Source: a virus. Taken from it: 48,952 nucleotides of DNA. Below are positions 1 through 48,952 of this stretch, piece by piece (positions within the stretch are counted from its first letter, which is position 1; each line of letters opens with the position of its first letter). The position numbers and the translations under genes are program-made. The notes under the pieces were generated by a model. That model searched no databases, was not told the origin of the DNA, and saw only the letters and a list, made by a program, of their open reading frames with translations. The stretch lies in the IMG/VR virus record IMGVR_UViG_3300006217_000086. The stretch is one strand, 5' to 3'.

Positions 1-77
1 CGCTCCGGCTGCTCCGGCAGCCCGGCCGCTTTGCTGAACCGGCGGTACTGCTCGTTCAGCCGCCGCAGGCGGACGGC
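1..77. repeat. 77-bp terminal overlap, identical to 48876..48952 (circular closure, assembler-style overlap)
   Basis: Direct comparison: cgctccggctgctccggcagcccggccgctttgctgaaccggcggtactgctcgttcagccgccgcaggcggacggc occurs at both ends. Confidence 0.95.
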
Positions 78-1446: not shown

Positions 1447-2196
1447 TTACCGCACGCCGCCATCCCCCAGGAACAAAAGCCGGAAGGTCTCCCGGCCCTT
1501 GGGGGTCACCAGGGTCTGGGTGCCGCTCCATTGGGTCTTCTCGTTGAAGCACTCCTTGACCTCAAACAAGCCGCCTGCCACATGGGGATGATAGGGAAGC
1601 AGCTTCCCCTTCTGGTCCCGATAGATGTACTTGTGCCGCAGCAGCTCCGAAACAAAGGCCTTTGGGCCAATCTCCAGCTGCTTGGCGGTCTCCCGGAAAT
1701 TGGTCAGCAGGTTCCGTTCCACCAGCTGGTCAAAGTAGTCCGCCTTTGGGCGCATCATCTGGTTGTCCACCGTCAGGGCGGAAATGCGGGCCTCCCGGTC
1801 CGCGATGGTCTTCTGGGCCAGCAGCAGGGCCTTTGCCATCAGCTCCTCCGGCGTCATGCGGTCCTGCCCCGCGATGTAGCCGCCACTGCGCCGGATGGAG
1901 GGCAGGACTTCATCAAAAATCCAGCTCTCGAACTCAGCGGCCCCCGGAAGGTCCGACCGGGCCGCAAGGCGATAGATGTCCCCCTCGGGGATGAAATTCA
2001 TTTCCTGTTCTCTGCCCAGTTTATCGGTGAGGTGGCGTTTCACCACCCCACGGCAATGCTGCTTGATGGCATTAGTAGTGTCCTTGTAGCCCAGCGCCGC
2101 CGCCACGTCCTTGCCGCAGAACAGCGTCACGCCGTTCTCCGTGATGGTCCGCACCTCTCCAAACTTTGGGCTCCCAAAGATTTGCAATTCATTCAT
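1447..2196 (-). CDS. Bro-N / KilA-C (ANT) antirepressor-like protein
   Basis: N-terminus MNELQIFGSPKFGEVRTITENGVTLFCGKDVAAALGY is a Bro-N pattern. The C-terminus matches the phage antirepressor KilAC pattern (ADYFDQLV...FRETAK). AAAGGAG SD. Confidence 0.8.
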   Translation of the reverse strand: MNELQIFGSPKFGEVRTITENGVTLFCGKDVAAALGYKDTTNAIKQHCRGVVKRHLTDKLGREQEMNFIPEGDIYRLAARSDLPGAAEFESWIFDEVLPSIRRSGGYIAGQDRMTPEELMAKALLLAQKTIADREARISALTVDNQMMRPKADYFDQLVERNLLTNFRETAKQLEIGPKAFVSELLRHKYIYRDQKGKLLPYHPHVAGGLFEVKECFNEKTQWSGTQTLVTPKGRETFRLLFLGDGGVR

Positions 2197-19802: not shown

Positions 19803-20960
19803 ATGGATTTTACCGAACAAATCGCCCAATTTGTAAAACGCGTAGAATCATTGCGGAGCTCCATCCAAACCGAAGAGGCCACTAAGACCGCCATCATCAT
19901 GCCCTTTTTCGCCCTGCTGGGCTATGACGTGTTCAACCCCCAGGAGTTCGCGCCGGAATACGTGGCCGACGTGGGCATCAAGCGGGGGGAGAAGGTGGAC
20001 TACGCCATTTTGCAGGACGGCGAGCCGGTGATTATCATCGAGGCAAAATCCATCAGCCGAAATCTGGAAAAGCACGACTCCCAGCTGTTCCGCTATTTCT
20101 CCACCACGCCTGCCAAGTTTGCCATTTTGACCAACGGGGTCCGTTACCGCTTCTACACCGATTTGGAGTCCCAGAACAAAATGGATGCCATCCCCTTCCT
20201 GGACTTTGATTTGCTGAACATAAAGGAGAGCCAGGTGGAGGAACTGAAGCGGTTCCGGAAGGAGAGCTTCAGCGTCTCCAAGGTCTTCGACGCCGCGTCC
20301 CTTCTGAAATATCAGGGGCGCTTCAAGGAAATACTGGCGGAGCAGTTCCAGACGCCGTCCGATGAGTTTGTCCGGTTTTTCCTGCAGGATGTGTATTCCG
20401 GCATGAAAACCCAGTCGGTCCTGGAGCGGTTCCGCCCCATTTTGCAGCGGTCCATGCAGGAATTTCTCAGCGACACCATGAACAGCAAAATCAAGACGGC
20501 TCTTTTTGCCCGGGAGGATGCCGAACAGCCGCCGCCAGCGGAGCCCCAGGAGCCGGCAAAGGAGACGGCACTCGTGCCGACGCAGGCGGAGATGAACGCC
20601 TATTACCACCTGAAGAATCTCTTTAAGAGTTATGTGAATTTAGAGGAGATTACCTATAAAAAGACCAGCTCGTATCTGGCGGTGCTGTACAAGGGGAATG
20701 TGCGGAACTGGATTTGCCGCCTGCTGGTCAGCGGCCCGCAGCTGGCTGTCATTTTACCGGACCAAGAGAAAAAAGAAATCCGGCGCAGTCTGGCGAACTT
20801 CTATGAGATCGGGAATTACAGCCGTTATATGATTTCTGTTCTGGGCCGTTATACGGATCTTTTTCAGCCCGCGGACCCGGAACCACCCATCTATCAGACC
20901 ACCATCCGCCGCCGCTTCCCGAAGCGCCAAGACCCGCAGGCGCTGCTGGACTCAAAATAA
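19803..20960 (+). CDS. HsdR_N-type PD-(D/E)xK domain protein with a ~240-aa uncharacterised C-terminal region
   Basis: EEATKTAIIMPFFALLGYDVFNP...EKVDYAILQDGEPVIIIEAKS...FAILTNGVRYRFY is the pattern of the type I restriction enzyme R N-terminal (HSDR_N_2) domain. Confidence 0.7.
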   Translation: MDFTEQIAQFVKRVESLRSSIQTEEATKTAIIMPFFALLGYDVFNPQEFAPEYVADVGIKRGEKVDYAILQDGEPVIIIEAKSISRNLEKHDSQLFRYFSTTPAKFAILTNGVRYRFYTDLESQNKMDAIPFLDFDLLNIKESQVEELKRFRKESFSVSKVFDAASLLKYQGRFKEILAEQFQTPSDEFVRFFLQDVYSGMKTQSVLERFRPILQRSMQEFLSDTMNSKIKTALFAREDAEQPPPAEPQEPAKETALVPTQAEMNAYYHLKNLFKSYVNLEEITYKKTSSYLAVLYKGNVRNWICRLLVSGPQLAVILPDQEKKEIRRSLANFYEIGNYSRYMISVLGRYTDLFQPADPEPPIYQTTIRRRFPKRQDPQALLDSK

Positions 20961-21904: not shown

Positions 21905-22438
21905 TTAAATTTCAGGTAATTTCAAAAACATTGGAATACACTCTGTATTCCAATCCTCTCTTGGGATCTCTCCCTGCTCATCTATTCGCCCAAAGCCGAA
22001 CTTTTCATAAAAGGGGACTGCTTTCCGGTCGGAGCAGAGGGTTCTGTATTCGATGCCGATTTCGGTTTCTCTCATTTCCTTCGCAATCGAAAATGCAAAT
22101 TTCATCAGATTCGAGCCGATGTGCTGTCCTTCAGCATCCTTGGAAACCGCAAGCTCAAAAATTTCCAGAGCCGGGAAACCGTATGTGACATGATCTTCCG
22201 TTCGAGTATAAGCAGATGCCCGCAGAGTGATATATCCGAGGAGTCTCTCTTCTGACCCATTTTCCCGGATGAACACATGCGTTACACCTTTCCCCCGACT
22301 CCGGTCACTGAGGGCAATCAGGCGGATATATTCTTCATAATGCCCATGATTTCCACAAGAATCGGGGTTGACCTGGAAGCTCCAGGCCAACCCGGCATAT
22401 TTTGGCGAATATCGTTCAATTCTGTCGGAAACGGTCAT
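21905..22438 (-). CDS. GNAT-family N-acetyltransferase (toxin-like)
   Basis: ALEIFELAVSKDAEGQHIGSNLMKFAFSIAKE...AVPFYEKFGFGRI is an acetyl-CoA binding motif A/B pattern. Confidence 0.75.
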   Translation of the reverse strand: MTVSDRIERYSPKYAGLAWSFQVNPDSCGNHGHYEEYIRLIALSDRSRGKGVTHVFIRENGSEERLLGYITLRASAYTRTEDHVTYGFPALEIFELAVSKDAEGQHIGSNLMKFAFSIAKEMRETEIGIEYRTLCSDRKAVPFYEKFGFGRIDEQGEIPREDWNTECIPMFLKLPEI

Positions 22439-37002: not shown

Positions 37003-40000
37003 TCATGTCAGCAGCACCGGCTTCCCGTTGGAGCGGGTCATGGCGTTGATGTGGCGCACGGTGTTTTTGGCAATCATCTTTCCATCCAGCACGCTTTCGA
37101 CTGTGACATGGATTTCTCCGCCCATACCGCCGGCCGCCTGGATGCCCTCCATAACCATCTGCTTTATCAGCGCCGCCGGAGCCTCCAGATTCATTCCGCT
37201 GCGCTGGTCGCCCAGGATGGCGGCAAACTGCTGGTTGGGCGGGATGACCGCGCCGTTGGCCAGACGGGGAAGCCTGACTGGAGAAACCGTCTGGATGTGG
37301 AAGCCAAAGGACCGCCCGCCCACGCCCGGCACCCAGTCCGGAACATCAAAGCGAATTTTGTTCAGCTGACTAATCAGCCAGTTCACAGCCTTAATCACGC
37401 TGTTCACCATGCCCTCTGCCGCGCCAATCATGCCGTTGACGGCATTTTTCACGGTGCCGACGGTCGCTTCAAAGGCACTCCCCAGAGGGCTTGTCACATG
37501 GTCCTCAAACCAACTGGAAGCAGATGCCCAGGAATTTTGAATGTCTGCCCAGGTTTCGCTGGCGCCGGTCCTAATGCTCTCCCAAAGGTTTGAAAACAGC
37601 TCGGTAATGGGAGACAAATTCCCATTCAGTCCATTGTGCAGTCCGGACATCAGGAAACCGCCAAACTCCTCAAACACTTTCGAGGGAGAGTGAATCCCAA
37701 AAAGGTCCTTGAACCAATCACCGATTTGGCTGAAAATCCCTTTCGTTTCCTCCTCGCTCACGCCCTCTTCCATCCCCTGCTCCAGGCCCTCGCCAATGTT
37801 CCGGCCGTATCCCGGCATATCGGCGGAAACGCCCTCGATGGTCTGCCGCACGCTGGACATGCGGCTTTCCAGCGTCACGCCAACATTGGCCTCCGGCTCG
37901 GAAAGGCCGGTGAGAGAACCGGCGTACGTGTCGATGGCCCCGCTCAGCTGGTCATAGGCGGTTATCGCATCGCTGCGAGCCTCGTTCGCCGCTTCCAGCG
38001 CCTCGGTCTGTTTCTCCTGCTGTTCCGTTAAAGCCACATGCTTTTCAATGTCCCACCAGGGCGTACTGGCCAGCTGTTCCTCGGTGTCTTTCAGTGCTTG
38101 TTCCGCGGCATTGATATTTTTGACCGCCTGCTCCGCGTCGGAAACCGCCTGATACCGGTCTTTGTATGCCTGCACCAAAAGCTCCTGCAGGGCGGCGGCC
38201 TCCGCCTCCTTTTGGAGAGACGCAATCAGCCGGTCCGTCGCTTCCTTGGTTTCCACAATGCGGCCCGTTGTTTCGTCAATGGTCAAGTGCAGTCCCTCAA
38301 GGCCCATGCTGTTCAGAAGCGTAACCTTCGTGGCCATAAGCTCCAGTTCATCCGCGGAGGCTTTGGCATTTTCATTGATTGCAAAGATTTCTTCCACCAG
38401 AGACTGCGCTGCGCCGATATCGGAAAAGGAGTGATTCAGATTTCGGATATTCTCCTCCAAGGTCTGCATTGCCGCAGAGGACCGGCCGGAGGAATCCTCG
38501 CATTCCTCCAAAATATTTGACATCACCCGGAAATCCTCCGACGCCTCATAGGCGGCCTTCCCGCCGCCAAGGAGCACGGCTGTCAAGGTCCCCACTACCG
38601 CGGCGATCCCCGCGACGACTCCCGCCACTAGGGCCGGGGCCCCCAGAATCACCGCGCCGACGCCTGCAAGCGCAACCCCCAGCAGCATCAGCGCCTCATT
38701 GGCCAGGCTGAATCCGTTCTGCAACATGGAGAAGAAGTTGGTAAACGCCAGTGCCGCGCCGCCCACAATCCCTCCAATCCCCACCAACGTGGAACCCGGC
38801 CCAAACACTGCGTTTATGGCTCCGGGGAGGTCGGCCATCTGGTACTTCAGCAGCACAGAGATGTCCTTGATCTTTTTGAAAAACGAGACGAATGCCGTGG
38901 CGACGGCGGCGATGTTCGGCACAACCTCCGCCGCGAATTTCACACCCAGCACCCCGGCAAGCACTGAAACCGCCGCCAAAAGTCCCGGGCTCCCCTCTCG
39001 GATGACCCCTTCCAGAAAATCGAAGCCGGCCGCGACCGCCGCTTGGACCGCCGCCCAAACCGAGGCGAGGATGCCGCCCCAGTCGACGCCGCTCAGAAAC
39101 GCCGCAATCTGCGCTCCAATTTCCCCCCACTGGATGCGGGCAATGGTGGCTTTCATCTCATCGAAGAATCCCATAATGAGATTGCTGGCTGCCTGGGCCA
39201 GAGCGGGCATGTCCAGCCCGGTGAAAAATCCGGCAAAGGTCTCCAGGCTTATTTCGAACTGGGCCCAAAGCAGCCGCCCGAAGTCGTACCAGTCCACCTC
39301 ATAGACCAGGCCGTTGACAAGGTCCGCCAACCCCCTGCCCAGACTTCCCCAGCCGAAGGTGTACAGAAACTCCGTCAGGAACTGGAGTCCCAGGTTCAGC
39401 CCCGCACCCAGGCTGCGGCCCCAGAGCTGCCAGTCAACGGCGCTTACCAGGGCGTTGAACGCCCCAGCCAGGTCCCGGCCAAGCTGCTCCACCCGCTCCA
39501 GTACGCCGTCGAATTGGAACGCGTCATAGAGGGTCTGGTTGAAGCCGTTGAAACTGGAGGCGAACTCCAAAAACGCCTCTTTCAGCCGCGGGATTCCCGC
39601 CAGCATCTCGTCCAGGGTGTCCCGGAAAATCTCTCCCAGGGTCCGGAAGGCTTCCCCCACCTCCAAAATCGCCCCGCCGTCCGTGTCCAGCTCCGGCACA
39701 GCGGCGTCGATGCCGCCGGCGCCGATGCCGCCCGCCGCGCCGTCCACGCTGCCGGCAGCCTGGTCCGCCAGGATGTTCAGCTCGTCGAAGCCGGCCAGCA
39801 CGCCCTTCATATCCTTAGCGGCCTTTTTGGAGGCATCCCCGGCGCCGGCGGTGGCGTCCGCCAGCTTGTCCGTGGCGTCTGCCGCGGCCTGGCCGCTGGA
39901 GGCGATGTCCTCGTTGGCAGAGACCTGGCCCATGTTTCCAATGTTTGGCTTCCCGAACAGCAGCGCCGTCACCTGGGCAAACACCTTTGCCAGCTTCAAA

Positions 40001-40785
40001 AGCGCGGAGATGATGGCGTTGACGCCGGGAAGAACCGCCTGGACAATGGGCATCAGGGCATTGCCCACCTGCACCTTCAGCTGCTGGAACTGAAAGGCCA
40101 GCATGGCCACCTGGCCAGAGTAGGTGCTGACCAGCTTCGCCGCGTCGCCGGTTTGGAACCGGGTTTCCTGGAGGATGCCGTTGACCTCGGCCTCAATTTT
40201 CTGCGCCTGGGTCAGACGGTTGGCTGTGGTCCCGATGCTTTTGGCGTAGTCGTCCCACATCTTCGCCACATTCTTCGTCACACCGGCGTTGTCCACCAGG
40301 ATGCTGTTCTCGTTTTTCAGGCCTTCCGTTGCGGTTTGAATCGCCTCGCCAAGCGAATAGCTGGACTGCCGCCCAAAGGCCGCACTGTCCTTCAGTGCAA
40401 GCATGAGCTGTCGGATTTGAGTATCGTCATATCCCCGCGCCGCCAGATTCTTATAGGCGGTTACAGCGTTTTCCAGCGGCACCAGACCGTCGGAGATGTA
40501 TTCTTCAATAAAGGATTTGGCCTTGCCAAAACTCCGTCCCTGGCCTTCCACGATGCTCTGAAGGCCCAGCCACGCATTGCTCAAATTCGACGCTGCCCGG
40601 ACGCTCTCCCGGCCGAAATTGACAATCGCCGCGGCGCCGAAGGCCAGGCCCACCGCCCCTGCCAGCTTCATCAGCGTGCTCTGCAGGGCCTTGGCCGAAT
40701 TGCTCATGGAGCGGATGCCCCGGTCAAAGGGGCTGTGGTTCAGCAGAGCCTTAATTCGAATGGAGCCGTCATAGCCGCCCATCAT
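37003..40785 (-). CDS. Tape measure protein (1260 aa)
   Basis: Size, Ala/Gly-rich helical and TM segments, and position after the chaperone genes. Confidence 0.9.
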   Translation of the reverse strand: MMGGYDGSIRIKALLNHSPFDRGIRSMSNSAKALQSTLMKLAGAVGLAFGAAAIVNFGRESVRAASNLSNAWLGLQSIVEGQGRSFGKAKSFIEEYISDGLVPLENAVTAYKNLAARGYDDTQIRQLMLALKDSAAFGRQSSYSLGEAIQTATEGLKNENSILVDNAGVTKNVAKMWDDYAKSIGTTANRLTQAQKIEAEVNGILQETRFQTGDAAKLVSTYSGQVAMLAFQFQQLKVQVGNALMPIVQAVLPGVNAIISALLKLAKVFAQVTALLFGKPNIGNMGQVSANEDIASSGQAAADATDKLADATAGAGDASKKAAKDMKGVLAGFDELNILADQAAGSVDGAAGGIGAGGIDAAVPELDTDGGAILEVGEAFRTLGEIFRDTLDEMLAGIPRLKEAFLEFASSFNGFNQTLYDAFQFDGVLERVEQLGRDLAGAFNALVSAVDWQLWGRSLGAGLNLGLQFLTEFLYTFGWGSLGRGLADLVNGLVYEVDWYDFGRLLWAQFEISLETFAGFFTGLDMPALAQAASNLIMGFFDEMKATIARIQWGEIGAQIAAFLSGVDWGGILASVWAAVQAAVAAGFDFLEGVIREGSPGLLAAVSVLAGVLGVKFAAEVVPNIAAVATAFVSFFKKIKDISVLLKYQMADLPGAINAVFGPGSTLVGIGGIVGGAALAFTNFFSMLQNGFSLANEALMLLGVALAGVGAVILGAPALVAGVVAGIAAVVGTLTAVLLGGGKAAYEASEDFRVMSNILEECEDSSGRSSAAMQTLEENIRNLNHSFSDIGAAQSLVEEIFAINENAKASADELELMATKVTLLNSMGLEGLHLTIDETTGRIVETKEATDRLIASLQKEAEAAALQELLVQAYKDRYQAVSDAEQAVKNINAAEQALKDTEEQLASTPWWDIEKHVALTEQQEKQTEALEAANEARSDAITAYDQLSGAIDTYAGSLTGLSEPEANVGVTLESRMSSVRQTIEGVSADMPGYGRNIGEGLEQGMEEGVSEEETKGIFSQIGDWFKDLFGIHSPSKVFEEFGGFLMSGLHNGLNGNLSPITELFSNLWESIRTGASETWADIQNSWASASSWFEDHVTSPLGSAFEATVGTVKNAVNGMIGAAEGMVNSVIKAVNWLISQLNKIRFDVPDWVPGVGGRSFGFHIQTVSPVRLPRLANGAVIPPNQQFAAILGDQRSGMNLEAPAALIKQMVMEGIQAAGGMGGEIHVTVESVLDGKMIAKNTVRHINAMTRSNGKPVLLT

Positions 40786-41035
40786 GAGATCCCTCCTTTC
40801 ACTGCGATTTGCAGATAAAAAGTTCCCGCCGTCTCAACCTCATAAAGACAGCAGGAACTTTGATTTTATTCGATTGTCACCCCCCCGGCTCCGGGGCCTT
40901 AAAGAGGCTCAGCTGTCCTGAAATCTGAGTGGAGAAGGCCTTCACCCAGAGGCGGGCTATAATCAGATTTAGCCTCGCCTCCGGGTGAGGGTGTATAAGG
41001 CAATCGGGTATAGCTTTCCACGGCCCCCGGTTGTC

Positions 41036-41215
41036 TTATCTTTTTATATCGTCCTCCAACTTTTCAATCCCACGTCTTACGGCTTCTGCCCTGCTGACCG
41101 TTTCCTGCTCAGTATATTCCTCAAGTATTTTTTCACTTTTGGAATCGAGGCGGATATGGATAGATTGCCCTTTGGGGTTGTCTGTTGGACGGCCTGTCCG
41201 TGGAGACACATTCAT
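41036..41215 (-). CDS. RHH (CopG/Arc-like) regulator or antitoxin-like protein
   Basis: PRTGRPTDNPKGQSIHIRLDSKSEKILEEYTEQETVSRAEAVRRGIEKL. AT-rich context. The start may be the GTG two codons downstream. Confidence 0.65.
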   Translation of the reverse strand: MNVSPRTGRPTDNPKGQSIHIRLDSKSEKILEEYTEQETVSRAEAVRRGIEKLEDDIKR

Positions 41216-41222
41216 CACCTCA

Positions 41223-41265
41223 CTTTTGTGGCCCAATAATATATTATACTTGCGGGCCACAAAAG
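41223..41265. promoter_or_regulatory. Perfect 12-bp inverted repeat cttttgtggccc / gggccacaaaag around an AT-rich (tatact) core, in the divergent intergenic region
   Basis: Read directly from the sequence. Likely operator or divergent promoter. Confidence 0.6.
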
Positions 41266-41339
41266 CCAAGGCCTTTTTGAAGAAAAATATGGACAGACTG
41301 TGAAGAATATGGTACATTGTCGAAAAGGAGGGGGATTCT

Positions 41340-42320
41340 ATGAATGGAGCAGTAATTGGCACTTTAATCCTCATATTCATGTTACTCATTAAGTGCATCA
41401 TCAATCTGTGCATAAAAGCACGATGCAGCCCAGATATGACGGTAGCAGAATACCTTATTGAAAAAACCTATTTGAATCCAAATAAGGAATTTTCTCCTCC
41501 GTCTTCCAAACGGAAGCAGATGAAACTTGCAAGATTTCTAATTAAAAAAGTAAATGTCAACATGTTTATGGCGAATTCATGCACAAATCTCACCATGTTT
41601 ATTGATTGTTATGACAAAGCAGCTGAGAGTGTTTCAAAAGTGCAAAAGTGCAAAAAAGCAATTACTAAGGAGCCTATTCGCACATATTACTCCAAGTATC
41701 GCGATTTAGGCGATGAATTTCAATGGCGTCTTTGTGATGCAATCAAAAAAGCAAAAGAAACCACAATTTTTGAAATTCAGGAGAAATACCAAAACAGCCG
41801 TGAATTTCAAGAAAAATCCTTTTCCCAGTTTGAAGATTCAATTAACGCCGCTAGGCGTAGATTTTCTATATATACCGCGCAATTTGCAGACGATTCCATT
41901 CAAGAAGTTAGAAACATGTTAGAAAGGTCCTCCCATTTACGATTCCCTTCGGACCTGAGCCTCTCCTCAGTAGACCATATGGAAGGCCACGATTTTGAAT
42001 ACTGGTGCGCAAAGCTGCTGAAAAGAAACGGCTTTGAACAAGTGGCTGTCACGAAAGGAAGCGGCGATCAGGGGGTTGACGTACTGGCTCTTAAAGATGG
42101 GGTGCAGTATGCTATTCAATGCAAATGCTATTCCTCTGACGTTGGGAATACATCTATTCAAGAGGTCCATGCCGGGAAAGCCTTTTATCACTGCCAAGTA
42201 GCGGTGGTTATGACCAACCGTTACTTTACAGCGGGTGCCAAGACCCTGGCTCAGGCCACCGGCGTTCTTCTCTGGGACCGTGCAAAACTCCAAGAACTGA
42301 TTGTCTCCGCCGCCCCATGA
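41340..42320 (+). CDS. Membrane-anchored Mrr-cat (PD-(D/E)xK) restriction-endonuclease-domain protein
   Basis: N-terminal TM segment GAVIGTLILIFMLLIKCIINLCI. C-terminus GHDFEYWCAKLLKRNGFEQVAVTKGSGDQGVDVLALKDGVQYAIQCKCYSSDVGNTSIQEV...VVMTNRYFTAGAKTLA is the Mrr_cat pattern. Confidence 0.75.
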   Translation: MNGAVIGTLILIFMLLIKCIINLCIKARCSPDMTVAEYLIEKTYLNPNKEFSPPSSKRKQMKLARFLIKKVNVNMFMANSCTNLTMFIDCYDKAAESVSKVQKCKKAITKEPIRTYYSKYRDLGDEFQWRLCDAIKKAKETTIFEIQEKYQNSREFQEKSFSQFEDSINAARRRFSIYTAQFADDSIQEVRNMLERSSHLRFPSDLSLSSVDHMEGHDFEYWCAKLLKRNGFEQVAVTKGSGDQGVDVLALKDGVQYAIQCKCYSSDVGNTSIQEVHAGKAFYHCQVAVVMTNRYFTAGAKTLAQATGVLLWDRAKLQELIVSAAP

Positions 42321-42335
42321 CCGGGGCGGCTTTTT
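42309..42335 (+). terminator. Rho-independent terminator (gccgcccc-atgacc-ggggcggc followed by TTTTT)
   Basis: Read directly from the sequence. Overlaps the stop codon of the Mrr-cat gene. Confidence 0.7.
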
Positions 42336-42397
42336 ATGCGCCTGTCAAACGTTCCGCTGTCTCTATGAAGTTGTCAAGGTGCAGATGGGCTGCCGAC

Positions 42398-42955
42398 CTA
42401 GGGCTCCGGCTCTTTTACCCGTCTCAAAATGTCCGCGATGGCCGCGGTTTCCTCCGCGGTGTACTGCCCCGGCAGGGCAAAGCGCCGCTTCATCCGGAGG
42501 AACTCCGCCCGCTTCCTCTGGTCCACTTCCGCGGCCTCCGTGGTCCGGATGTCCATCACGCCGGAAAAAGCCGTGCCGCCCAGGTCCCCCAGCATGGAGA
42601 CAAAGGAGAACCAGTGGAGCCTTTCCCGGCTGATGTCCAGCCCGAAGACCCTGCGGAAGGCGGACACCAGCCGTCCCGCGTCATATTCGAAGGAATAGAC
42701 CTCCGGGCCGCCGTCCTCCTCCGCCGCCGTCTCCGGCGCTCCGCAGGACATGAACCAGCCCAGGCCCCGGACGGCGGTCTCCAGGTCCGGCATCCCGTTG
42801 CCGTACAGCAGGGACAGGGCGGTCCAGGTCTTTTCGCTGTCGCTCAGCTCCGCGTCCGAGAGGCACAGCTGAATCTGCACCCCAATCCGGTAGTCCGTGC
42901 GGATGAGCCAGCCCTTGTAATCCTCTGGCAGGCGGTCCAGCAGGGCGTTATACAT
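42398..42955 (-). CDS. Phage Gp15-family tail assembly protein
   Basis: MYNALLDRLPEDYKGWLIRTDYRIGVQIQLCLSDAELSDSEK. Confidence 0.65.
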   Translation of the reverse strand: MYNALLDRLPEDYKGWLIRTDYRIGVQIQLCLSDAELSDSEKTWTALSLLYGNGMPDLETAVRGLGWFMSCGAPETAAEEDGGPEVYSFEYDAGRLVSAFRRVFGLDISRERLHWFSFVSMLGDLGGTAFSGVMDIRTTEAAEVDQRKRAEFLRMKRRFALPGQYTAEETAAIADILRRVKEPEP

Positions 42956-48151: not shown

Positions 48152-48952
48152 TCACACCAGTCCTTTTAATGCTATTATAGCATCCTTTTCAAAGTTTGGG
48201 AATAGAATATGGAAAAGATTCAAAACATCTTTATTATTTTGGAATTGAATTCTCCCAAACTGCGCCCATGCTTCCAGCTCCAAGAAGCCTTTCGTTCTCC
48301 AATAATTCCTCGGGTGACCATAGCCATAGTCTATTTTTCCCACTGAAAATCCATTTAGAATATCGGCAATCCCACGATATTCTTCTTTGAACACCGTTCT
48401 TCCTGTCAAAGAGTTTGTTTCAAACAGATTGGGGAATTTCGACACAAGGTACTGTTTCACATCGCCTCCGCTTGCTGCATTCAGCGCCAGGTAGTCGTTC
48501 ATCAAACTTTCCGAAAATCTCTGACTGACCCGCCCGCCCACATCCATTCTGTGAAACAGCTCATGCACCAATGTGGAGGCATCCGCATTCGCTCCAATGT
48601 GGATGATATTCAGCCCGGGCCCTGGGTGGAAATACGAGCGGGCCCCGCTTTCCACAATATAATCCGCATTCCGGTACACCTTCCGCAGCGCCGCCCGCAT
48701 TTCCGGCGTGGTGCGGGCCATGCCGTCATGGAAGGACTTCCGAAGCCCTTTGGGCAGCCCGCCAAAGCCGGTCACCTTCCGCAGCTTGGCCGCGCTCTTG
48801 GCCGCTCTCCTGGCCCGGTCGCCAAGATCACTTTCTGCCGCCGCCAGAGGTCCGCCGCCCTCCAGCACCCGCAGCCGCTCCGGCTGCTCCGGCAGCCCGG
48901 CCGCTTTGCTGAACCGGCGGTACTGCTCGTTCAGCCGCCGCAGGCGGACGGC
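48152..48952 (-). CDS. MuF-family protein, C-terminal HExxH metallopeptidase-like module (continuation of 1..308 across the junction)
   Basis: ...ASTLVHELFHRMD... (HExxH) with a downstream ELEAWAQF. The 3' ~300 nt are conspicuously AT-rich relative to the rest of the gene. Confidence 0.7.
   Translation of the reverse strand, partial: AVRLRRLNEQYRRFSKAAGLPEQPERLRVLEGGGPLAAAESDLGDRARRAAKSAAKLRKVTGFGGLPKGLRKSFHDGMARTTPEMRAALRKVYRNADYIVESGARSYFHPGPGLNIIHIGANADASTLVHELFHRMDVGGRVSQRFSESLMNDYLALNAASGGDVKQYLVSKFPNLFETNSLTGRTVFKEEYRGIADILNGFSVGKIDYGYGHPRNYWRTKGFLELEAWAQFGRIQFQNNKDVLNLFHILFPNFEKDAIIALKGLV
48876..48952. repeat. Second copy of the 77-bp terminal overlap
   Basis: Identical to 1..77. Confidence 0.95.

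What the first reader, a model, noticed from the sequence alone, without database searches (positions are those of the whole stretch)
40786..42397. AT-rich island inserted between the tail chaperones and the tape measure gene: RHH regulator plus membrane-anchored Mrr-cat nuclease (candidate defence / superinfection-exclusion module)
Composition drops sharply relative to the GC-rich flanking tail genes. The island carries its own regulatory signals:
- A perfect 12-bp inverted repeat operator (41223..41265) in a divergent promoter region.
- A canonical terminator (42309..42335).
- Two long hairpins on the tape-measure side (about 40885..40905 and 40940..40990).

It encodes a CopG/Arc-like RHH protein on the minus strand. 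On the opposite strand to the whole late operon, it encodes a 326-aa protein made of an N-terminal TM helix, a ~190-aa unrecognised helical region and a C-terminal Mrr-cat PD-(D/E)xK nuclease domain (GDQGVDV...IQCK).

A nuclease tethered to the membrane and expressed from its own repressor-controlled promoter inside a prophage tail operon is a classic moron layout. It could attack incoming DNA or act as an abortive-infection or TA-like effector.
Basis: partly seen in the sequence, partly recalled or inferred. Interest (0 to 1): 0.7.

Follow-up and report, generated by a model that had tools for sequence, protein, structure and literature searches.

The report
Phage moron encoding membrane-anchored Mrr nuclease
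A temperate gut phage carries, wedged between its tail-chaperone and tape-measure genes, a foreign AT-rich cassette encoding a nuclease tethered to the cell membrane; it most likely protects the lysogen by cutting incoming phage DNA, as the recently described SNIPE defence does, but with unrelated protein parts.

Summary
GC falls from about 0.61-0.65 to 0.37-0.46 across window 40800..42397. A related phage (L018) has only 12 nt between the same two genes, so this is an insertion.

The + strand gene (41340..42320) encodes one N-terminal TM helix, a basic helical bundle with no known relative, and an intact Mrr_cat PD-(D/E)xK nuclease domain. The protein belongs to a narrow, uncharacterised family of gut Clostridia phages. 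At least 33 of 48 distinct loci lie in one of two accessory positions:
- antisense between the tape measure and Gp15 genes (14 loci);
- next to an integrase or recombinase, where inspected between the repressor and that gene (19 loci).

A few members carry HNH in place of Mrr_cat.

The architecture matches SNIPE (TM, adaptor, nuclease), but DUF4041 and GIY-YIG are absent, so it is an analogue, not a member.

The RHH is not a dedicated partner. Its close homologues head Bro-N antirepressor operons (P22 immI-like), and the window has lost that antirepressor.

The window is a circularly closed phage genome, not a demonstrated prophage.

The slot is bracketed by conserved inverted elements, one of them a late-strand terminator hairpin.

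Function is inferred and untested. I rate it a new variant of a known kind.

The parts
42398..42955 (-). Flank: Gp15-family tail assembly protein, last late gene before the insertion
   Evidence: Pfam Phage_Gp15 E=1.3e-23. Called as 185 aa in identical contigs.
42345..42383 (-). Element A: conserved bracket sequence just downstream of the Gp15 stop. Late strand reads TGCACCTTGACAACTTCATAGAGACAGCGGAA... It is the inverted copy of arm 1 plus loop of element B.
   Evidence: 87-95% identical in L110, L051 and L019 although their cargo differs. Found as an inverted pair with B in at least 12 phage backbones.
42309..42335 (+). Intrinsic terminator of the nuclease gene. It overlaps the stop codon. 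There is no T-run on the minus strand, so it acts in one direction only.
   Evidence: 8 G-C pair stem, 6-nt loop, then TTTTT; sequence read.
41340..42320 (+). 326-aa membrane-anchored nuclease gene, antisense to the late operon. RBS AAAGGAGGGGG lies 6 nt upstream.
   Evidence: The identical protein occurs on 19 contigs; the 8 shown are all in the same context.
41346..41423 (+). N-terminal transmembrane helix (aa 3-28). Predicted topology is N-out, C-in, so the nuclease is cytoplasmic.
   Evidence: Kyte-Doolittle maximum 2.63 at aa 3-21 and no other hydrophobic segment. The downstream flank has 8 K/R against 4 D/E. Model helix 3-28. 169 of 201 family proteins have at least one N-terminal TM segment. 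Topology is inferred from the positive-inside rule.
41493..41951 (+). Family-specific basic helical domain (aa 52-204, pI 9.5). Proposed adaptor, DNA-binding or autoinhibition module.
   Evidence: No Pfam hit even at E<=10. No convincing PDB fold match. Only 160 representatives among 1.84 billion proteins. Fused to Mrr_cat in 96 of 126, HNH in 5 and FtsK_gamma in 18. Charge counts.
41973..42302 (+). Mrr_cat PD-(D/E)xK nuclease domain (aa 212-321). Putative catalytic residues are E220 (41997), D247 (42078), Q260 (42117) and K262 (42123).
   Evidence: Pfam Mrr_cat 1.1e-29. These residues are invariant in 114 sequences. Foldseek matches 1y88, AspBHI, MspJI and Cdn1/Can2 nuclease domains.
41290..41318 (+). 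Promoter-like site for the nuclease gene (TGGACA, 17 nt, TACATT, with TG extension)
   Evidence: Consensus scan. This is a prediction only; the region gave 4 sites against 2.2 expected.
41223..41265 (.). Palindromic operator candidate: perfect 12-bp arms CTTTTGTGGCCC / GGGCCACAAAAG around an AT-rich centre that holds TATAAT on the minus strand. It lies 8-14 nt upstream of the RHH start.
   Evidence: 3 of 2000 shuffles give such a repeat. Other RHH loci in this slot have different palindromes at the same relative position. It occurs nowhere else in the window.
41036..41215 (-). Small RHH-type repressor gene, co-oriented with the late operon. The likely start is GTG 41209 (57 aa).
   Evidence: PHROG 876 at 1.6e-14. 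DUF6290 is below its cutoff. Homologues are mostly 57 aa and two carry PF01402. Homologous to RHHs in the same slot of L232 and L210 (E 2e-10 and 3e-8).
40862..41035 (-). Structured non-coding spacer with hairpins at 40940-40991 and 40883-40896. 40875-40941 is about 80% identical to the 3' end of a Phage_pRha gene in L110, so it is probably a remnant of a lost antirepressor operon.
   Evidence: Fold z = -5.3. blastn and alignment. Rha annotation. No protein-level remnant was detected.
40812..40861 (-). Element B: 16-bp hairpin plus U-run on the late-strand RNA, terminator-like, directly upstream of the tape-measure RBS. Arm 1 plus loop is complementary to element A.
   Evidence: Predicted -25.7 kcal/mol on the late strand against -16.0 on the opposite strand. 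The A:B1 duplex is predicted at -36.4 kcal/mol.
37003..40785 (-). Flank: tape measure protein (1260 aa), first late gene after the insertion
   Evidence: ORF. The N-terminus is homologous to the gene that follows Gp15 in L018-L022. No Pfam hit; the assignment rests on size, position and those relatives.

Best explanation
What is there:
- Window 40800..42397 is a moron cassette sitting in a recombination-prone slot of a temperate siphophage, between the Gp15 tail chaperone gene and the tape measure gene.
- Its main cargo is a nuclease transcribed from its own promoter, antisense to the late operon, and ended by its own terminator.
- It can therefore be made while the late genes are silent, that is, in a lysogen.

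Proposed mechanism (inferred):
- The protein is held in the cytoplasmic membrane by one N-terminal helix, with a basic helical domain and an active Mrr-type PD-(D/E)xK nuclease on the cytoplasmic face.
- Tethering keeps the nuclease away from the chromosome.
- The helical domain recognises DNA and/or the entry complex of a superinfecting phage, and the nuclease cuts DNA as it crosses the membrane.
- This is the logic shown experimentally for SNIPE, built here from unrelated adaptor and nuclease domains.

The RHH gene:
- It is a small autoregulated repressor left over from an Arc/Mnt-like antirepressor (immI-type) operon that normally occupies this slot.
- Its palindromic operator lies in the divergent promoter region and may also damp the nuclease promoter.
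- It is not a conserved partner of the nuclease.

Insulation: the hairpin plus U-run upstream of the tape measure gene (element B) stops transcripts that start inside the cassette from running into the tail genes.

Shown: the insertion, the domain architecture, conservation of catalytic residues, the genomic positions of homologues, nuclease-domain swapping, and RHH-antirepressor linkage in relatives.

Inferred: expression in lysogens, membrane topology, nuclease activity, the target, and protection.

The confidence of 0.5 is for a lysogen-expressed, membrane-tethered nuclease that defends against incoming phage DNA. The specific SNIPE-like step, cleavage during injection, I put at about 0.3.
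For: Insertion:
- The empty site in L018 has 12 nt between the Gp15 stop and the tape measure ATG.
- The same junction holds other cargo in relatives: Rha, AntA, Lar-like, DUF4352 and lipoprotein genes.

Architecture:
- Mrr_cat E=1e-29.
- Confident model with a TM helix, helical bundle and nuclease fold.
- E220, D247, Q260 and K262 are invariant in 114 sequences.
- 84% of family proteins have N-terminal TM segments.

Context of 48 distinct full-length homologue loci (examples):
- 14 lie antisense between the tape measure and Gp15 genes.
- 19 have an integrase or recombinase within 3.5 kb. In the loci inspected this gene lies on the same strand, with an HTH repressor upstream.
- The closest relatives (45-52% identity) are all at the tape-measure/Gp15 junction and have no RHH.

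Effector swapping: the middle domain is fused to HNH instead of Mrr_cat in TM-bearing proteins P0172, P0180, P0195 and P0210.

Precedents:
- SNIPE is an N-out single-pass TM, an adaptor that binds DNA and the tape measure protein, and a nuclease. It cleaves phage DNA during injection, and removing the TM makes it toxic (PMC13190303).
- The HK97 gp15 moron lies at the same chaperone/tape-measure junction and encodes an inner-membrane superinfection-exclusion protein (PMC3594210).

Middle domain: it is basic (pI 9.5), like the DNA-binding face described for SNIPE's adaptor.

RHH:
- Close homologues precede Bro-N antirepressors.
- Other phage homologues precede antirepressors inside structural modules.
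- Each RHH in this slot has its own palindrome at the same relative position.
Against: - There is no expression, localisation, nuclease or phage-challenge data for any member of the family.
- The promoter is only a consensus match, in a region where such matches are not enriched.
- No defence-system model covers the whole protein. PADLOC hits are limited to the nuclease half, and PDC-S02 is itself an untested candidate.
- 12 of 48 homologue loci showed none of the marker neighbours. P0112 sits among housekeeping genes and has a zinc-ribbon N-terminus.
- The window protein has one TM helix where most relatives have two.
- The TM helix contains a lysine.
- A terminator-like hairpin on the late strand just before the tape measure gene is awkward for a lytic cycle unless it is read through.
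- Co-regulation of the nuclease by the RHH is only suggested by proximity. The palindrome ends 25 nt before the predicted -35 box.
Confidence: 0.5

Rival explanations
1. Abortive-infection or toxic effector. The membrane-held nuclease is released or activated by infection, or by membrane perturbation, and then degrades host and phage DNA alike. The cell dies, rather than the entering DNA being cut selectively.
For: - Same context evidence as the best explanation.
- Mrr-like domains serve as effectors in Lamassu, Zorya and CARF-type systems matched by PADLOC.
- Foldseek matches the Can2/Cdn1 effector nuclease domains.
- TM-less SNIPE is toxic, which shows that such nucleases can attack the chromosome.
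Against: - No sensor or second component is conserved next to the gene.
- The only experimentally studied protein with this architecture acts directly and without cell death.
- Nothing in the sequence suggests a release mechanism.
Confidence: 0.17
2. Membrane-located type IV (modification-dependent) restriction enzyme. It discriminates by DNA modification, as Mrr does, and the helical domain acts as the modification reader.
For: - Mrr_cat is the catalytic domain of Mrr and of the MspJI/AspBHI-type modification-dependent enzymes.
- JGI names some homologues 'restriction system protein'.
- Some members add a DNA-binding FtsK_gamma winged helix.
Against: - No known reader domain (Mrr_N, SRA or similar) is detected.
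- The TM anchor, conserved in 84% of members, is not explained by this model.
- HNH-swapped variants suggest a generic effector rather than a specialised restriction fold.
Confidence: 0.12
3. A lytic-cycle phage function, such as host DNA degradation, DNA processing or help with lysis, rather than a lysogen-expressed defence.
For: - The gene lies inside the structural gene cluster.
- 187 relatives were confirmed in viral contigs.
Against: - It is antisense to the late operon and has its own terminator.
- It is absent from a closely related phage and replaceable by unrelated cargo.
- More distant homologues sit between the repressor and the integrase, co-oriented with them.
Confidence: 0.07
4. 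An RHH antitoxin and nuclease toxin pair that stabilises the phage genome by addiction.
For: - The RHH shows weak similarity to RelB-type antitoxins (NCBIfam E=0.012, far below cutoff).
- A nuclease could act as a toxin.
- HicAB pairs occur in the same slot in relatives.
Against: - The genes are divergent, not co-transcribed.
- The RHH is absent from every other nuclease locus examined.
- Close homologues of the RHH head Bro-N antirepressor operons.
- Nuclease homologues occur alone in 873-1366 bp gaps.
Confidence: 0.03

Closest known systems
SNIPE (PD-lambda-1) of E. coli: membrane-bound nuclease that cleaves phage DNA during injection (Saxton et al., Nature 2026, PMC13190303)
   Same: - Single-protein layout: N-terminal TM anchor (N-out, cytoplasmic C-terminus), a central adaptor domain with a basic surface, and a C-terminal nuclease.
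- The N-terminal region is variable among homologues, with one, two or no TM segments, while the nuclease is the best-conserved part.
   Different: - The nuclease is Mrr_cat PD-(D/E)xK (or HNH in a few relatives), not GIY-YIG.
- The central domain is not DUF4041 by sequence and has no recognised fold relative.
- The family is phage-borne and confined mainly to gut Clostridia.
- Nothing has been tested experimentally.
HK97 gp15 moron (Cumby et al. 2012; reviewed in PMC3594210)
   Same: - An inserted element with deviant GC content and its own promoter and terminator.
- Located between the tail assembly chaperone and tape measure genes.
- Encodes an inner-membrane protein that excludes superinfecting phages.
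   Different: - gp15 is a small membrane protein with no enzymatic domain, thought to block channel formation.
- Here the cargo is a 326-aa nuclease on the opposite strand.
- There is no sequence relationship (the Pfam family 'Phage_Gp15' of the window's flanking gene is unrelated to HK97 gp15).
Mrr / type IV restriction endonucleases (Pfam Mrr_cat, PF04471)
   Same: The catalytic domain matches well above the gathering score, and the D...QxK core is conserved.
   Different: - There is no Mrr N-terminal winged-helix reader.
- A TM anchor and a novel helical domain take its place.
- The gene is phage-encoded.
P22 immI region (Arc and Mnt RHH repressors controlling the antirepressor Ant, embedded in the late region); comparison from my own knowledge
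   Same: - A small RHH repressor with a palindromic operator at its own promoter, embedded within the late region.
- In relatives it is followed by Bro-N/Rha/AntA antirepressor genes.
   Different: - In the window the antirepressor has been lost, and only about 67 nt resembling a Rha 3' end remain.
- No sequence comparison with Arc or Mnt was run.
PADLOC candidate PDC-S02 and the Mrr-like part of Zorya ZorD
   Same: HMM matches to the C-terminal half: ZorD 8.7e-23 and PDC-S02 1.3e-12.
   Different: - The matches cover only aa 167-323.
- No ZorABC genes or helicase are present.
- PDC-S02 is an untested candidate. In the papers that hold the term (titles and abstracts only) it appears as a census label.

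Membership tests
Mrr_cat PD-(D/E)xK nucleases (PF04471) | Domain match above Pfam's gathering score | tested here: met
   103.3 bits against a cutoff of 21, E=1.1e-29, aa 212-321, covering profile positions 2-115 of 115.
Mrr_cat PD-(D/E)xK nucleases (PF04471) | Catalytic acidic residues and the (E/Q)xK lysine are retained | tested here: met
   E220, D247, Q260 and K262 are invariant in 114 family sequences. The fold matches Mrr-like nucleases. Assignment of the residues to the motif rests on my own knowledge of the D-QxK variant in Mrr.
Mrr_cat PD-(D/E)xK nucleases (PF04471) | DNA cleavage activity | not testable with these tools
   Needs biochemistry.
SNIPE / PD-lambda-1 | N-terminal membrane anchor with cytoplasmic C-terminal domains | tested here: met
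   One strong hydrophobic helix at aa 3-28 and a positively charged downstream flank. This is a prediction only.
SNIPE / PD-lambda-1 | Central DUF4041 domain | tested here: not met
   No DUF4041 hit for the whole protein, nor for four isolated middle domains at E<=10.
SNIPE / PD-lambda-1 | GIY-YIG nuclease domain | tested here: not met
   The nuclease domain is Mrr_cat. Variants carry HNH, and no GIY-YIG appears among 126 proteins scanned.
SNIPE / PD-lambda-1 | Cleaves phage DNA during injection and associates with the tape measure protein | not testable with these tools
   Needs labelled-DNA injection assays and proximity labelling, as in PMC13190303.
Moron (Hendrix/Juhala sense, as summarised in PMC3594210) | Extra DNA relative to related phages at a conserved gene junction | tested here: met
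   L018 has 12 nt where the window has 1612 nt.
Moron (Hendrix/Juhala sense, as summarised in PMC3594210) | GC content differs from the neighbouring genes | tested here: met
   0.37-0.52 against 0.61-0.65.
Moron (Hendrix/Juhala sense, as summarised in PMC3594210) | Own promoter and terminator | tested here: inconclusive
   The terminator is clear. The promoter is only a 9-of-12 consensus match with a TG extension, in a region where such matches are not enriched.
Moron (Hendrix/Juhala sense, as summarised in PMC3594210) | Expressed from the repressed prophage | not testable with these tools
   No transcript data are available.
Type II toxin-antitoxin pair (RHH antitoxin plus toxin) | Co-transcribed adjacent genes with conserved pairing | tested here: not met
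   The genes are divergent. The RHH is absent from all other nuclease loci, and RHH relatives pair with Bro-N operons.
Type IV restriction enzyme Mrr | N-terminal modification-reading DNA-binding domain | tested here: not met
   Pfam finds only nuclease-domain families, and the middle domain has no Pfam match.
RHH (CopG/Arc/MetJ) repressors | Match to an RHH family model | tested here: inconclusive
   - The window protein matches PHROG 876 'transcriptional repressor' at 1.6e-14.
- DUF6290 scores 22.3 bits, below its cutoff of 27.
- Weak aCcr1 and RelB hits; no PDB sequence hit.
- Homologues P0323 and P0347 carry PF01402.
- Phage homologues are annotated CopG/RHH by their depositors.
immI-like RHH-antirepressor module | The RHH gene is followed on the same strand by an antirepressor gene | tested here: not met
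   - In the window only a 250-nt spacer follows, holding a DNA remnant that resembles a Rha 3' end.
- The feature is met in relatives.

The most novel reading that the evidence does not exclude
Two linked novelties are not excluded.

(1) The TM-helical-nuclease family (Mrr_cat or HNH effectors) is an independent, phage-borne invention of SNIPE-type 'entry-site' immunity in Gram-positive gut bacteria. Its new helical domain recognises the injection apparatus of rival siphophages.

(2) The slot it occupies is a dedicated cassette site.
- The conserved elements A and B form a long-range RNA switch. Late transcripts that contain A pair it with arm 1 of the B terminator and read through into the tape measure gene.
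- Transcripts that start inside the cassette in a lysogen lack A and terminate at B.
- The same inverted repeats also mediate cassette inversion and exchange.
Probability: 0.15. Interest if true: 0.8.

Novelty: new variant of a known kind. Interest (0 to 1): 0.6.

Why it matters
If the mechanism holds, discriminating self from non-self by location is not a peculiarity of one E. coli protein. A nuclease tethered at the membrane, where foreign DNA enters, would be a general design that has been assembled more than once from different parts: GIY-YIG with DUF4041 in SNIPE, and Mrr_cat or HNH with a new helical domain here.

It would also show temperate phages of abundant gut Clostridia carrying this design as swappable cargo to exclude rivals.

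The family gives a second, unrelated adaptor domain in which to ask what such nucleases recognise at the injection site. The tape-measure/chaperone slot, with its conserved bracket, offers a defined place to mine for further phage-borne exclusion genes: lipoproteins, zinc-ribbon and TM proteins, HicAB, and antirepressors.

Tried and rejected
- Rfam search of 40500-42600 at E<=1 gave only two sub-threshold miRNA-model matches, which I take as chance. No known RNA family explains the hairpins.
- The operator half-site was searched in the whole window with up to 2 mismatches. There are no further sites beyond chance (7 found, 7.8 expected).
- The RHH was searched against all fetched nuclease loci by tblastn at E<=1. 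It was found only in the identical contigs.
- DUF4041 or other Pfam similarity for the middle domain at E<=10: nothing meaningful.
- Foldseek of the full model against PDB: the middle domain gave only 14-3-3-like helical matches with rmsd of about 17 A. I rejected these as non-specific.
- PDB sequence search with the RHH: no hit.
- Protein-level remnants of Rha, Lar or AntA in the window: none. Only DNA-level similarity over 40809-40941 was found.
- GenBank phage collection: only the Mrr_cat domain matches. I first counted Roseburia phage Jekyll's enzyme as a family relative, then corrected this, because it lacks the middle domain.
- Rapid phase variation of the cassette: the inverted form is a single cargo lineage about 2% diverged, so the data fit one historical inversion rather than frequent switching.
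- PDC-S02 literature: going by titles and abstracts, it appears only as a census label. I did not read the papers.
Full report
**1. The observation**

The composition drop is real and sharp (profile):
- Nuclease N-terminal and middle part: GC 0.365.
- Divergent intergenic region: 0.411.
- RHH gene: 0.456.
- Nuclease Mrr part: 0.516.
- Rest of the window: 0.611 on the left and 0.653 on the right.

The + strand ORF 41340..42320 (326 aa) and a small minus-strand ORF ending at 41036 are present. The sequence features check out as follows:
- The 12-bp perfect inverted repeat lies at 41223-41234 and 41254-41265. Only 3 of 2000 shuffles of the island give such a repeat.
- The terminator at 42309-42330, followed by a T-run, is canonical.
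- The hairpins at 40940-40991 and 40883-40896 exist. The 255-nt spacer folds far better than shuffles on the minus strand (z = -5.3).

**2. It is an insertion in a hot spot**

A related viral contig, L018, has a Gp15 protein 74% identical to the window's. It has 12 nt between the Gp15 stop and the tape measure ATG, where the window has 1612 nt.

Other relatives carry different cargo at the same junction:
- a Rha-family gene (L021);
- a zinc-ribbon, TM and DUF4352 protein on the opposite strand (L019);
- AntA, Lar-like and Rha genes together with an FtsK_gamma-Mrr_cat nuclease (L110);
- lipoproteins and small TM proteins.

This is the junction of the archetypal moron, HK97 gene 15. [quoted passage not shown]

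**3. The window as a whole**

The first and last 77 bases are identical, so this is a circularly closed assembly of about 48.9 kb. An identical protein lies on a 48,916-bp NCBI contig.

The genome encodes the following genes at 18.5-24 kb:
- a Cro-like HTH;
- a CI-like HTH_3 plus Peptidase_S24 repressor;
- an HSDR_N-domain protein;
- a GNAT acetyltransferase;
- a zinc-ribbon tyrosine integrase.

A Bro-N/KilAC antirepressor lies at 1447-2196. This is a temperate phage, but integration is not shown. Hosts of relatives are Oscillospiraceae and allies: Flavonifractor, Pseudoflavonifractor and Dysosmobacter.

**4. The nuclease**

Domain architecture:
- Pfam Mrr_cat matches aa 212-321 at E=1.1e-29.
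- The AlphaFold2 model, built from a 114-sequence alignment, has mean pLDDT 91.8. It shows helix 3-28, a helical region 35-199, and an alpha/beta domain.
- The only hydrophobic segment is aa 3-21 (KD 2.63). The flank after it is positively charged, which predicts an N-out, C-in topology.
- Relatives with two TM segments have a basic N-terminus and an acidic loop, which places the nuclease in the cytoplasm as well.
- E220, D247, Q260 and K262 are invariant in 114 sequences.

Structure and family searches:
- Foldseek against PDB matches only the C-terminal domain: 1y88, AspBHI, MspJI and Cdn1/Can2. The helical domain has no convincing relative.
- BFVD returns gut-virome proteins named only 'restriction endonuclease'.
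- The helical domain has no Pfam match even at E<=10. It is basic, with pI 9.5.
- A profile of the helical domain finds only 160 cluster representatives among 1.84 billion proteins.
- Of 126 such proteins scanned, 96 carry Mrr_cat, 18 add FtsK_gamma, and 5 carry HNH instead.
- At least four of the HNH proteins keep the TM segments and the helical domain (P0172, P0180, P0195, P0210).
- 169 of 201 family proteins have at least one N-terminal TM segment.

**5. Where the family lives**

There are 1517 homologues in the large protein collection and 187 confirmed in IMG/VR.

Among 48 distinct loci that include the helical domain:
- 14 lie between the tape measure gene and the Gp15 gene, antisense to both.
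- 19 have a tyrosine or serine recombinase within 3.5 kb. In the loci inspected it lies downstream on the same strand, with an HTH repressor upstream.
- 3 have only an HTH or ImmA-type gene nearby.
- 12 have none of these markers.

The closest relatives (45-52% identity; L026-L044 and L106) are all at the tape-measure/Gp15 junction. There the nuclease fills the gap alone (873-1366 bp) and no RHH is present. Both positions are classical sites of lysogen-expressed accessory genes.

**6. The RHH**

It matches PHROG 876 'transcriptional repressor' at 1.6e-14. Pfam and NCBIfam RHH-type models score below threshold. Homologues are mostly 57 aa, so the likely start is GTG 41209, and two of them carry PF01402.

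It is not a partner of the nuclease:
- tblastn at E<=1 finds it only in the identical contigs.
- Homologues 81-91% identical are followed on the same strand by small ORFs and a Bro-N antirepressor. They are preceded by variable divergent cargo, again often just upstream of a tape measure gene.
- More distant homologues in phiCD211 and in Streptococcus phage MismyG also precede antirepressors inside structural modules.
- Homologous RHHs in this slot (L232, L210; E 2e-10 and 3e-8) show the same layout.
- L232 and L110 (whose RHH-like ORF is unrelated in sequence) each carry their own palindrome at the same relative position.

In the window the antirepressor is gone. Bases 40875-40941 are about 80% identical to the 3' end of the Rha gene of L110, although no protein-level remnant is detectable.

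The RHH is therefore best read as the Arc/Mnt-like repressor of a decayed immI-type module. Its operator may also influence the divergent nuclease promoter, but this is inference from proximity only.

**7. The bracket, elements A and B**

Two conserved elements flank the cargo in the window, L110, L051 and L019, and in at least 12 backbones in IMG/VR. The cargo between them ranges from 1.0 to 5.3 kb.
- Element A lies just after Gp15 (window 42345-42383).
- Element B lies just before the tape measure gene (window 40812-40861).

Their relationship:
- A is the inverted copy of B's first arm plus loop, about 20-30 nt.
- B's two arms form the terminator-like hairpin.
- The hairpin is more stable on the late-strand RNA than on the opposite strand in 12 of 13 versions (window: -25.7 against -16.0 kcal/mol).
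- The predicted A:B1 duplexes (-31 to -44 kcal/mol) are stronger than the hairpins (-16 to -29).
- Non-Watson-Crick positions of A:B1 are G.U on the late strand 24 times, against 11 times for the opposite strand.
- L019 and L051 carry GAGATAGCGG / CCGCTATCTC where the window and L110 carry GAGACAGCGG / CCGCTGTCTC, which is a compensatory change.

One lineage has the same flanks but an inverted 1-kb lipoprotein cassette. The inverted form is a single cargo lineage about 2% diverged, so the data fit one historical inversion.

B most simply insulates the tail genes from transcription that starts inside the cassette. Whether A acts as a long-range antiterminator or processing stem for late transcripts, or whether A and B are mainly recombination sites, is open.

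**8. Mechanism and comparison**

The best-supported reading is a lysogen-expressed, membrane-tethered nuclease that excludes superinfecting phages.

The direct precedent is SNIPE. It is an N-out single-pass TM protein with a DNA-binding and tape-measure-binding DUF4041 domain and a GIY-YIG nuclease. It cleaves lambda DNA during injection, becomes toxic when the TM is removed, and has a variable N-terminal region among homologues (PMC13190303).

The window protein shares that architecture but fails two defining membership features, DUF4041 and GIY-YIG. It therefore may work like SNIPE without being a SNIPE. PADLOC matches only the nuclease half.

Rivals, in order of likelihood, are abortive-infection effector, membrane-located type IV restriction enzyme, lytic-cycle function and toxin-antitoxin pair. 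They are weighed in the Rival explanations section. The toxin-antitoxin and lytic readings are disfavoured by gene orientation, non-conserved pairing and dispensability.

**9. Verdict**

The moron and the membrane nuclease hold; the RHH-nuclease module and the prophage status do not.
- Novelty: a new variant of a known kind, namely an uncharacterised, phage-borne analogue of entry-site nuclease defence.
- All functional statements are inferences that need the experiments listed.

Noticed in passing
window 42345-42383 and 40812-40861; L110, L051, L019, L188-L271: Conserved inverted elements A and B bracket the Gp15-to-tape-measure cassette slot in at least 12 phage backbones with different cargo. 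B is a late-strand terminator-like hairpin, and A is complementary to its first arm plus loop. There is one compensatory change and an excess of late-strand G.U positions. It could be a long-range RNA antiterminator or processing stem, or a pair of recombination sites.
   Followed up: partly
L188-type versus L198/L259-type loci (IMG/VR): The same outer flanks hold a 1,039-bp lipoprotein cassette in opposite orientations (10 contigs forward, 9 inverted), with junctions exactly at the A/B1 repeats. The inverted cargo is one lineage about 2% diverged, so this is at least one historical inversion and not shown to be phase variation.
   Followed up: yes
window 19803-20960 (+): A 385-aa protein with an HSDR_N (type I restriction R-subunit N-terminal, PD-(D/E)xK-like) domain lies just downstream of the CI-like repressor gene, on the same strand, upstream of the integrase. 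Other phages carry the TM-Mrr nuclease in this slot. It is a second candidate accessory or defence gene in this phage.
   Followed up: partly
window 1-77 and 48876-48952: There is a 77-bp identical terminal overlap. The window is a circularly closed assembly of a complete phage genome of about 48.9 kb, with no host flanks.
   Followed up: yes
window 21905-22438 (-): A GNAT acetyltransferase gene in a low-GC patch (0.47) lies between the HSDR_N gene and the integrase. It is another likely accessory gene.
   Followed up: no
window 1447-2196 (-): A Bro-N plus KilAC antirepressor is encoded far from the RHH. The RHH operator half-site does not recur near it, so the RHH probably does not control it.
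   Followed up: partly
L110 5362-6381 and 5257-5331; L275 2700-3371: Other Mrr_cat nucleases without the TM-helical module also sit divergent from an RHH in the same kind of cassette. L110 has an FtsK_gamma N-terminal domain and L275 is a 223-aa form. L110 has a triple palindromic operator between the RHH and the nuclease. Mrr_cat effectors recur as the antisense cargo of these immI-like modules.
   Followed up: partly
L276-L278 6101-6713: A HicA/HicB toxin-antitoxin pair sits just upstream of the tape measure gene, in the same slot, in phages that carry an 81%-identical RHH.
   Followed up: no
window 41340-42320: GC is heterogeneous within the nuclease gene: 0.365 for the TM and helical part against 0.516 for the Mrr_cat part. 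The Mrr_cat DNA is 65-75% identical to many otherwise unrelated genes. This suggests domain-level mosaicism.
   Followed up: no
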